This document shows, piece after piece, positions 35,101 to 38,100 of a stretch of DNA of 64,000 nucleotides (its first letter is position 1; every line of letters starts with the position of its first letter). The notes under the pieces are model-generated. The model was not told the origin of the DNA and ran no database searches. It saw only the letters and a list, made by a program, of their open reading frames with translations. A program made the position numbers and the translations under genes. The stretch is from assembly GCF_032062105.1 (NCBI RefSeq), contig NW_026938747.1, positions 186,001 through 250,000 of the forward strand, read 5' to 3'. Source of the DNA: Saccostrea cucullata. Taxonomy: Eukaryota.

Positions 35101-38100
35101 CTAATTGACTTTCAGGAAAACAGATATTTTTAATGCCTTGTCGAGAACTTTTATGGAACATGTAGTGATTTGTCATGTCTTTCCTTCCGTCACACTTTCC
35201 ACTTACTGGTAAATGTTTGTTATGTTAAATACTCTGTTAACTTGATTGCTACCTATCTGTAACGTTAAAAGGGGGGCTACCTGGTTGATAATGTAGGGGG
35301 CAACCAGGTAATGTAGGGGGCATAAAAGACTGATTTTCTCCCAGGGAAAATCCTACTATAGGGTAGAATTGGAGGAATCCATTCCTACAGTACTTTTCAT
35401 TAACACTGGTACTTGAGTTTTGAAGTAATAACATGGCTACTGCTCATGCTTTAAGGTATATTGTATCTCAGTTGAGGTCAACATAATTAAACTACTGTAA
35501 ACCAACTTTTAATCGCATGCGAGAAATTTTCGCTACTGCGAATATTCTCGCCGCGAACCGGTTGTAAAAGTGTATATGTCTATTAACAACAGATACAAAA
35601 AGGCTTGATCGCAAAAATTAATCGTCGCCAACTAGCTTCTCCCTGGTAAATGGCGAAATAATGTCCTCGCGAATAAAAGTTGGTTTACAGTATATTTTCA
35701 TATTTTAAATAAAAATCACCTGGAAATGTGGATTGTCCTGATATGTAAGTTGTATCGACATTCTGTATGTGGATTTTCCTGATATCTAAGTTGTACCGAC
35801 ATTCTGTAGGTGGATTTTCCTGATATGTAAGTTGTACTGACATTCTGTAGGTGGATTGTCCTGACTTGTAAGTTGTACTGACATTCTGTAGGTGGATTGT
35901 CCTGATATGTAAGTTGTACTGACATTCTTTAGGTGGATTGTCCTGATATGTAAGTTGTACCGACATTCTGTAGGTGGATTGTCCTGACATGTAAGTTGTA
36001 CTGACATTCTGTAGGTGGATTGTCCTGACATGTAAGTTGTACCGACATTCTGTAGGTGGATTGTCCTGACATGTAAGTTGTACCGACATTCTGTAGGTGG
36101 ATTGTCCTGACATGTAAGTTGTACTGACATTCTGTAGGTGGATTGTCCTGATATGTAAGTTGTACTGACATTCTGTAGGTGGATTGTCCTGATATGTAAG
36201 TTGTACTGACATTCTGTAGGTGGATTGTCCTGACTTGTAAGTTGTACTGACATTCTGTAGGTGGATTGTCCTGATATGTAAGTTGTATCGACATTTTATA
36301 GGTGGATTGTCCTGATATGTATAGAGGGAAACATAAAGATGATGCCAATCCAAGCTTGAAGTATGCACAGCAAGTTCACACAGCCATCAAAAAAGCCAAA
36401 GAGAAGGGCAGAAATGTAAGTTTATGATATGGAATGTGTTTTTATATTTGTACATGTAGTATGTAATGGCATATGCAGCTAATTGCTTTAAATTCTGTCT
36501 GTTGATAATGTAAAAAAAAATTCCAAGAAGCAGTAAATTATATATTTCTTAAAATCTTATTAGAGACAAATTTAAAATTTGATTCATATTTCAGCCAATG
36601 TAAATGTTCTTAATCACAGTGCCTACTTTTGTCATATATGTAACAAAAAATGTTGCAAGCAGCAAAATATATGTTAGAAGTTGTGTTGTGTATATTTTGT
36701 ATACAGTTACAGAAACAAGATTTCATAAGTACATGTAATAATTATTATAACTGAAAATAATCTTCAAGTGCATCATATTACAGTGGACCTTCAGATATCC
36801 GGACACCAGATATCCGGATGCTTCAGTATCCGGACGATTTTTCATTAGAACGGAAATTTTAAACATTATTTTGTCTTATTTAACTGATAATTCAGATATC
36901 CGGATGCTTCACATATCCGGACAAATTGACTAGGAACCAAAGCGTCCGGATAAATGAGGCTCCACTGTACTCAAGTCAACATCTAGAAAAAAAAAATACA
37001 TGTTCTTTAGCATAAAGTCTGCTTCTGAGAATAAAATTTTGGTTCAAATTGCTACAACTTACCTTTTTCCGTATCATACTCTGTATGAACCCGAGTGGCA
37101 AAAGTCTCAGGATTGTTATTATTGTCTCAGGCTGATCATGATATTCAGGGAGATATGTAATAATGTATGCATTACCATTAACCAACTCTTATTTGAGTGA
37201 GAGAAATATCTGCAAGTAAGACTTCTGATACCGCATCAAGCATATTCCTTTTGGAATGCTACCATTGGACAAAGGCAAGATCAGATAGATTTTTGTATGA
37301 ATCTGTTGGGGATTGGTTACACTTCTGGATGGGTGCCTGTTAGGGGCACCTATAATCCCAGCCAATAGACTTTATTGTGTAGTGTACATGATGCAGTAAC
37401 TGTGATGTGTTTTCAGGTAGCAGCCTTTATGTCTGAGCCTTTGATGACAAGTGGAGGGGTGATTATGTATCCAAACAAATACTTGAAATTGGTTTACAGG
37501 TATGCAGTTTAGGGTGTAGCTAATGCATGTACCCATGTGTAGCAAGTCCTAGTAAGCACTTCTTATCCATTCCTATGATTTCTAGACCAGTCAAAATGTT
37601 ATTCCCACAATTTAAAACAAAAAACATTCATTGCATTTAAATTTCAAAGTTAAAAGTTTTGGAATGCCTCCTGAAATAGCATTTCTGTTTGATGTGGATT
37701 TGAAATCTTTGGAATGGATAAATAAGTTGAGGTCACAGGGGCAGAGGTGGATATGGAGCAGTGAAGGTAACGCGGTCCTAACTGTTCTGGTTATGATTAC
37801 AGATTGCAGGCTTTCTCAGTGAACCGTTGATGAGTATATGTGGGGTGATAAACCCACCGAGGAACTACTTAAAGTTGGTGTACAGGTCAGTCTGTAGATT
37901 GTGATGTACCCTAACTACTTATAGTTGTACACATCTCTTCACAAATCAATTGGCTTCCCTCAAAGTCTTTACAAAAAAACACTCATTTCATGGAATTAAG
38001 TGCACTGTAGGACATGTAAAAAACATTGAATTGCAGTTTTTATGATGTTTTATAGCTGAAGCGGTTACCTACATGTGTATACATGTAGTGACATATGTAT

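What the first reader, a model, noticed from the sequence alone, without database searches (positions are those of the whole stretch)
37500..37916. Long stem and competing pairings around ETNPPL exons 7a/7b, one masking the 7b branch point
Seen: an intra-intron stem TTATCCATTCC (37563-37573) / GGAATGGATAA (37711-37721), 11 bp perfect, continued by GATTTC/GAAATC and AAATGTTATT (37594-37603) / AATAGCATTT (37675-37684). The element GCAGTTTAGGGTGTA (37504-37518) just after the 7a donor can pair either with TCCTAACTGT (37776-37785), which contains the 7b branch point, or with TGTACCCTAACT (37905-37916) just after the 7b donor, looping out 7b. Inference: either pairing represses 7b, giving an RNA-structure switch like the one proposed for GFAT. 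The competing duplexes are short (10-12 bp with a bulge and G-U pairs).
Basis: partly seen in the sequence, partly recalled or inferred. Interest (0 to 1): 0.7.

Follow-up and report, generated by a model that had tools for sequence, protein, structure and literature searches.

The report
Oyster intron stem between twin exons
An oyster enzyme gene carries two look-alike exons, only one per annotated protein, and the intron between them holds a predicted stem, unchanged in close relatives, that likely biases the choice as in known vertebrate genes; the proposed two-way RNA switch is not supported.

Summary
All seven motifs lie at the stated coordinates. The gene is an oyster PHYKPL/ETNPPL-like phospho-lyase. 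Exons 7a (37417-37499) and 7b (37803-37885) are 83-nt duplicates; annotated oyster isoforms carry one or the other, as do scallop and zebra-mussel isoforms. Including both or neither gives an early stop. The outer stem (11+6 bp) is real: pairing probability at least 0.95 in 20 of 20 contexts, unique in the genome, 0 of 34 paired positions changed in relatives against 41 of 267 intron positions. No compensatory change was seen, and only about 90%-identical relatives were reachable. The inner 10-bp helix is not conserved. The 'switch' fails: pairing of the post-7a element with the branch point never exceeds 0.09, both duplexes have chance-level energies, and part of the downstream arm exists only through a deletion private to this genome. 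The branch point is instead predicted in a local hairpin, and an unchanged RBFOX motif (UGCAUG) lies 25 nt after 7a. Best reading: an FGFR2/SCN9A-like RNA bridge biasing splicing to 7a (29 of 29 reads), with decay removing double or no inclusion. New member of a known kind; untested.

The parts
36302..36415 (+). Constitutive exon 6
   Evidence: tblastn of P0001; its 3' end is the loose end before 7a in spliced contigs and reads
37417..37499 (+). Alternative exon 7a, 83 nt, [27 protein letters not shown]
   Evidence: Spliced 6-7a-8 contigs in X20 and X7; 29 of 29 raw reads laid; proteins P0026, P0028, P0029
37504..37518 (+).
   Evidence: one base left out at 37511 in X5
37524..37529 (+). UGCAUG (RBFOX motif), 25 nt after the 7a donor, inside a weak hairpin 37519-37543
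   Evidence: no listed change in X1, X5, X7; motif in 33 of 1280 50-nt tiles; binding not tested
37563..37589 (+). 5' arm of the long stem (11-bp helix 37563-73, 6-bp helix 37577-82)
37594..37684 (+). Inner helix 37594-603/37675-684 and loop; predicted here, not conserved
37695..37721 (+). 3' arm of the long stem; the only listed changes (37709, 37710) fall in the 3x3 internal loop, one adding a pair
37754..37789 (+). Predicted local hairpin 37754-62/37781-89 that buries the branch adenosine
   Evidence: p 0.72-0.91 in 20 of 20 contexts; z -1.86, 10 of 200; 8-bp core unchanged in relatives but not significant
37777..37783 (+). Inferred 7b branch point CCUAACU, adenosine 37781; also a CUAAC motif
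   Evidence: Sequence; 34-nt AG-free zone; not mapped
37803..37885 (+). Alternative exon 7b, 83 nt, [27 protein letters not shown]; 55 of 83 nt identical to 7a
   Evidence: 100% match to P0001; P0032, P0025, P0030; 0 reads
37796..37905 (+). Predicted hairpin pairing the 7b acceptor region (37796-37812) with the stretch after the 7b donor (37889-37905); context-dependent
   Evidence: p 0.04-0.99, above 0.5 in 8-9 of 12 contexts at 37 C and 4 of 12 at 22 C; z -1.91
37905..37918 (+).
42536..42630 (+). Constitutive exon 8
   Evidence: tblastn; loose ends after 7a; acceptor and donor read

Best explanation
Exons 7a and 7b are a duplicated, either-or pair, and the predicted long stem between them likely works as an RNA bridge that biases splicing towards 7a, while nonsense-mediated decay would remove transcripts with both exons or neither. 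Shown: the duplicate exons, one-exon isoforms, the early stops on double inclusion or skipping, 7a use in the reads, and the unchanged stem arms. Inferred: the stem forms in vivo. It shortens the path from the UGCAUG motif to the 7b branch point from 254 to 97 nt (30-60 steps in full predicted folds). An RBFOX protein bound there would sit downstream of 7a (activating position) and, through the bridge, upstream of 7b (repressing position). A local hairpin over the branch adenosine would add to the default silence of 7b. 7b would be released in tissues with less RBFOX or with a STAR/QKI-type protein on the CUAAC motifs.
For: One-exon isoforms: Saccostrea, C. gigas and C. virginica each have a 7a and a 7b protein. 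Both exons give a stop at codon 75 of 125 and skipping at codon 50 of 70 of the exon 6-8 stretch, with later junctions remaining. Stem p at least 0.95 in 20 of 20 contexts at 37 and 22 C, 0.2-0.4 kcal/mol to force, arms occur only here in 1.17 Gb. 0 of 34 paired positions changed against 41 of 267 (hypergeometric P 0.002; 7 of 267 circular shifts as clean). UGCAUG unchanged; none of the 6 other donor stretches checked has it. Distances. 29 of 29 reads on 7a, no 7a-7b joint. Precedents: FGFR2 IAS2-ISAR stem with GCAUG and Fox-2 (PMC2471395, passage), SCN9A bridge with Rbfox2 (10.1101/2025.08.16.670673, abstract and passages), positional rule (PMC2777236, passages).
Against: No compensatory change was seen; conserved arms could be protein sites. 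Relatives are only about 90% identical, three lineages at most, and up to one X1 change and one X7 change could not be placed. The UGCAUG is a single copy, 0 of 6 changed is expected by chance (P 0.36), and it is predicted partly paired (0.55-0.89 at 37 C), which would hinder binding. In FGFR2 the GCAUG lies downstream of the stem and in SCN9A the structure lies after the second exon, so the geometry here differs. 97 nt is not close. In SCN genes decay was not the major cause of exclusivity (10.1101/2025.08.16.670673). The reads are few, from one study of a relative; no read shows 7b. No oyster RBFOX or decay data were examined.
Confidence: 0.4

Rival explanations
1. Proteins and decay do all the work: RBFOX on UGCAUG after 7a, a STAR/QKI/SF1-type protein on the CUAAC motifs flanking 7b, decay for exclusivity. 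The stem is incidental or its arms are protein sites.
For: 2 of the 5 CUAAC in the 6.1 kb between exons 6 and 8 flank 7b; the motif is in 26 of 1280 tiles. ASD-2 binds CUAAC repeats near a branch site in C. elegans unc-60 (PMC3875643, passages); SF1 and QKI compete for branch points (PMC13004596, search listing only). No covariation seen.
Against: Both arms are spared across 34 paired positions while the internal-loop bases change; two separate protein sites need not be complementary (1 of 300 shuffles). The motifs read CCUAAC, not the QKI consensus NACUAAY given in PMC3875643.
Confidence: 0.25
2. Structure-assisted steric hindrance: the stem and its neighbours pull the 7a donor so close to the 7b branch point that the intron between them cannot be spliced, which makes the exons exclusive.
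For: Donor-to-branch-point path falls from 281 nt to medians of 20-43 steps in sampled folds, below the roughly 50-nt threshold cited in PMC7969005 (passages). No 7a-7b joint.
Against: With the conserved helix alone the path is 124 nt; the short paths use small helices, at least one of which is broken in relatives (37739). Steps through base pairs are not the linear distance for which the threshold was set. Shortening a 303-nt intron could as well help its splicing.
Confidence: 0.13
3. One reading: the element after the 7a donor pairs either with the 7b branch point or with the look-alike after the 7b donor.
For: Both duplexes can be drawn. In relatives the downstream core is 10 bp, -13.4 kcal/mol; 9 of 400 shuffles reach this near the 7b donor. 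The downstream pairing costs only 1.1-3.5 kcal/mol to force. The long stem nests inside either pairing.
Against: Branch-point pairing at most 0.09, downstream pairing above 0.5 in 1 of 12 contexts; chance-level energies; 4.0-10.8 kcal/mol to force the branch-point form; extension private to this genome; core damaged in this genome (37917) and in X5 (37511); both forms repress 7b.
Confidence: 0.12
4. Exon 7b is hidden in its own hairpin (acceptor paired with the stretch after its donor) and this, not the long stem, keeps it off by default.
For: 16 pairs with one mismatch; p up to 0.99; z -1.91, 8 of 200; the one listed change (37808) keeps a wobble pair.
Against: 6 of 16 pairs are G-U; strongly context-dependent (0.01-0.99); found after the fact; splice-site constraint explains the conservation.
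Confidence: 0.1

Closest known systems
FGFR2 exons IIIb/IIIc, IAS2-ISAR stem with GCAUG and Fox-2 (PMC2471395 passage; PMC2777236 passages)
   Same: Duplicated either-or pair, a stem that favours the upstream exon, RBFOX motif, frameshift and decay on double or no inclusion (stated in 10.1101/2025.08.16.670673).
   Different: There the GCAUG elements lie downstream of ISAR and in IIIc; here one UGCAUG lies upstream of the stem. There function is shown and the pairing is reported conserved to sea urchin; here neither.
SCN9A exons 5a/5b, ISRE1-ISRE2 RNA bridge with Rbfox2 (10.1101/2025.08.16.670673)
   Same: Structure plus RBFOX suppress the second duplicate exon and tune the ratio without creating exclusivity.
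   Different: The elements lie in the intron after 5b with three UGCAUG; here the stem lies between the two exons with one.
Docking-site/selector and bidirectional pairing (Dscam1, srp: PMC4691838, PMC6071210 passages; ATE1: PMC7797038 search listing)
   Same: One element complementary to two look-alike sites can be drawn.
   Different: Energies at chance level, arms not conserved intact, and both forms would repress the same exon instead of each selecting one.
Distant-branch-point steric pairs such as OGDH 4a/4b (PMC7969005 passages)
   Same: Two duplicated exons with a short intron between them.
   Different: The inferred branch point is 281 nt from the upstream donor and the AG-free zone is 34 nt; a CUAAU at +21 to +25 is lost in all three relatives (37523).
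ETNPPL/PHYKPL phospho-lyases (PDB 6TOR)
   Same: Best solved relative, E 5e-146 over residues 8-445; Pfam Aminotran_3 hits below the curated cut-off on single exons.
   Different: Sources name the oyster protein PHYKPL-like; which substrate either isoform uses was not tested.

Membership tests
Mutually exclusive tandem duplicated exons | Adjacent homologous exons of equal length and phase | tested here: met
   83 nt each, 55 of 83 nt and 17 of 27 residues identical
Mutually exclusive tandem duplicated exons | Mature transcripts hold one exon or the other | tested here: met
   7a in reads and spliced contigs; 7b in database isoform models of four oysters, whose RNA support I did not see; no protein with both among those listed
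FGFR2-type stem between the exons / RNA bridge | Stable stem in the intron between the two exons | tested here: met
   Predicted p at least 0.95 in 20 of 20 contexts; not probed
FGFR2-type stem between the exons / RNA bridge | Conserved pairing with compensatory changes | tested here: inconclusive
   0 of 34 paired positions changed; no covariation; only close relatives reachable
FGFR2-type stem between the exons / RNA bridge | RBFOX site brought near the regulated exon | tested here: inconclusive
   One UGCAUG, 254 to 97 nt; binding untested
FGFR2-type stem between the exons / RNA bridge | Disruption changes the ratio and compensation restores it | not testable with these tools
   Needs a minigene
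Docking-site/selector competing pairings | Duplexes stronger than chance and populated in the fold | tested here: not met
   142 of 300 and 96 of 300 shuffles; 0 of 20 and 1 of 12 contexts
Docking-site/selector competing pairings | Conserved docking and selector sequences | tested here: inconclusive
   Element: 1 of 13 positions changed, P 0.38; downstream arm split by about 22 nt in relatives but its core is stronger there
Docking-site/selector competing pairings | Each alternative pairing selects a different exon | tested here: not met
   By position both would exclude 7b
Steric hindrance by distant branch point | Branch point within about 50 nt of the upstream donor, long AG-free zone | tested here: not met
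   281 nt; AG-free zone 34 nt
U2/U12 spliceosome incompatibility | One flanking splice site of U12 type | tested here: not met
   Donors GTAAGT, GTATGC, GTCAGT are U2-type; U12 consensus recalled, not from a call
Decay-enforced exclusivity | Double or no inclusion gives an early stop before later junctions | tested here: met
   actual decay not tested

The most novel reading that the evidence does not exclude
An 'anti-branch-point' element next to the 7a donor toggles between the true 7b branch point and a decoy copy of it after exon 7b, held in reach by the conserved stem, and so switches a catalytic-domain loop of a phospho-lyase whose exon was duplicated early, or repeatedly, in bivalves (oysters, a scallop, zebra mussel).
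Probability: 0.08. Interest if true: 0.6.

Novelty: new member of a known kind. Interest (0 to 1): 0.3.

Why it matters
If the stem proves functional it would carry the stem-plus-RBFOX control of duplicated exons, known from FGFR2 and SCN9A, into a mollusc metabolic enzyme; my searches found no paper on this exon pair and no earlier scan note. The swapped exon covers residues 207-233, the strand and loop aligned to human ETNPPL 'IAESMQSCGGQIIPP', which from recalled knowledge of class III aminotransferases lines the substrate entrance, so 7a and 7b enzymes may differ in substrate. The same segment differs between isoforms in a scallop and in zebra mussel, which hints at an old or repeated duplication. 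It does not open a new mechanism.

Tried and rejected
Metagenome scan for bivalve exon 7 with its donor: 0 hits; protein-based scan: 2 loci, 49% identical, covering only C-terminal residues 348-486, not used. So no intron from another genus was obtained and covariation over long distances is untested. The relatives' introns were not refolded whole; their differences were scored by position and read pair by pair. Rfam: one sub-threshold hit (snoR114, 22 bits against 45, E 0.31), taken as chance. Transposon origin of the stem: arms and region are single-copy in the searches; the DNA search skips very common words. Distant branch point and U12 incompatibility rejected (membership table). The 27-column tree resolves oyster 7a and 7b groups but not their relation to the scallop and zebra-mussel variants. 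Absence of 7b in three raw-read runs is one study and does not show that 7b is unused. The Dscam exon 17 steric-hindrance paper (PMC3917985) is not held; I saw only its title in a reference list. No supplements were read. Earlier-finding look-ups returned nothing.

Full report
Gene. The stretch lies in a PHYKPL/ETNPPL-like phospho-lyase gene. Exon 10 is 100% identical to a Saccostrea protein, P0001; its exons map to this window, and the best solved relative is human ETNPPL, 6TOR. Exon 7a is 37417-37499 and 7b is 37803-37885, each 83 nt and 55 of 83 nt identical. The own genome showed one copy of the locus.

The pair is mutually exclusive. Saccostrea, C. gigas and C. virginica each have one protein with 7a and one with 7b; Ostrea edulis has a 7b form in the list. 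Argopecten X1/X2 (13 positions) and Dreissena X1/X2 (10 positions) differ only in this segment. The listed isoform pairs of Mizuhopecten, Pecten, Ylistrum and two Mytilus species differ only at the N-terminus. A 27-column tree groups oyster 7a (93/88) and 7b (98/96) but cannot place the scallop and zebra-mussel forms. Spliced contigs in X20 and X7 join exons 6, 7a and 8. In three raw-read runs of one study of a relative, about 45% of each read, 29 of 29 laid reads fell on 7a, none on 7b or the intron, and no 7a-7b joint was listed. Both exons give a stop at codon 75 of 125, skipping at codon 50 of 70, so decay could enforce exclusivity by itself (established rule; not tested in oysters).

Observation. 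All motifs are at the stated places. The outer stem is the longest inverted repeat in 2 kb. 1 of 300 shuffles and 6 of 208 real tiles reach its score; for the 11-bp helix alone 7 of 300 and 24 of 208. Its 11-bp and 6-bp helices have p at least 0.95 in 20 of 20 contexts at 37 and 22 C. The 20-letter arm patterns match only the two arms in 1.17 Gb. The intron as a whole is not unusually stable (z -0.65).

Conservation. Contigs of relatives (X1, X5, X7; about 90% identical) gave a difference table. Leaving out the donor hexamer and the last 30 nt, 41 of 267 intron positions differ in X5 or X1; 0 of 34 in the 11-bp and 6-bp helices (P 0.002; 7 of 267 circular shifts; X5 alone 0 of 34 against 32 of 267, P 0.01). 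The two changes inside the 3' arm fall in the 3x3 internal loop and one adds a pair. Limits: one search hid 26 substitution rows and 10 indel rows. By-kind counts leave 5 X5 changes unlisted, most likely beyond 37999 where the list stops, and 1 X7 C-to-T, which would keep a wobble pair if it lay in the 5' arm. Up to one X1 change near contig ends could lie in the 5' arm. No compensatory change was seen. The inner helix has 5 of 20 positions changed and is not conserved.

The proposed switch. The element pairs with the branch-point site at -11.6 and the downstream site at -10.9 kcal/mol; shuffled elements do as well in 142 and 96 of 300 trials, and at least 12 sites in introns 6-7 do better. 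In the ensemble the branch-point form is at most 0.09; the downstream form passes 0.5 in 1 of 12 contexts. Forcing them costs 4.0-10.8 and 1.1-3.5 kcal/mol. All three relatives have about 22 more bases within the downstream arm, so its 5' extension comes from a deletion in this genome's lineage. Against: this genome lost that pair and X5 lacks base 37511. Both forms would repress 7b, so neither selects it.

What the folds and motifs show instead. The branch adenosine is predicted in a local hairpin, 37754-62/37781-89, p 0.72-0.91 in 20 of 20 contexts. A hairpin joining the 7b acceptor to the stretch after its donor appears in some contexts (0.04-0.99). Both are marginal against shuffles (10 and 8 of 200) and were picked after the fact. 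A UGCAUG lies 25 nt after the 7a donor and CUAAC lies at the 7b branch point and 26 nt after the 7b donor; the motifs occur in 33 and 26 of 1280 tiles. The stem shortens UGCAUG-to-branch-point from 254 to 97 nt and donor-to-branch-point from 281 to 124 nt; sampled folds give 30-60 and 20-43 steps.

Mechanism. I commit to an RNA bridge that tunes the ratio towards 7a together with RBFOX, with decay securing exclusivity (0.40). Only the exon pair, the frameshifts, 7a use and the unchanged arms are shown; folding in vivo, binding and effect are inferred.

Comparison and novelty. It resembles FGFR2 IIIb/IIIc (PMC2471395, one passage; PMC2777236, passages) and SCN9A 5a/5b (10.1101/2025.08.16.670673, abstract, outline and passages). 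It fails two defining tests of docking-site/selector systems (PMC4691838, PMC6071210, passages) and those of distant-branch-point pairs (PMC7969005, passages) and U2/U12 pairs. I also read passages of PMC7404189, PMC11802352 and PMC3875643; ATE1 and SF1/QKI papers were seen as search listings only. Searches for this gene's exon pair found nothing relevant; most subscription papers and all supplements were unseen. Rfam gave no real match. Verdict: real exon pair, real and probably constrained stem, unsupported switch; new member of a known kind; interest 0.3.

Noticed in passing
window 4248-4664 and 4795-5043 (+): The GFAT gene at the window's start has a duplicated coding exon (56% identity over 64 residues), a second likely either-or pair in the same window.
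   Followed up: no
window 37297-37373: A stable single-copy hairpin about 45 nt upstream of the 7a acceptor (z -2.7, 2 of 200; one genome match). The two X5 changes listed there (37362, 37365) keep wobble pairs, but X1 diverges at its 5' end.
   Followed up: partly
window 36790-36970: Short element with inverted ends and internal 19-nt direct repeats, looking like a miniature transposon in intron 6.
   Followed up: no
window about 35690-36390: Repeated sequence of roughly 120-nt units just upstream of exon 6, seen as repeating translations on the minus strand.
   Followed up: no
window 37863-37877 and 37913-37927: A 15-nt direct repeat (14 of 15) between the end of exon 7b and the downstream arm; the stretch after CCCUAAC ends in an AG and resembles a decoy acceptor.
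   Followed up: no
proteins P0008/P0041 and P0087/P0083: Scallop and zebra-mussel isoform pairs differ only in the exon-7 segment, pointing to an old or repeated duplication in bivalves.
   Followed up: partly
window 52750-60195 (+): A G-protein alpha subunit gene follows the phospho-lyase (Pfam G-alpha).
   Followed up: no
G000:C4042:31330-42024: A distant paralog of the phospho-lyase (37-66% identity by exon); not checked for a duplicated exon.
   Followed up: no
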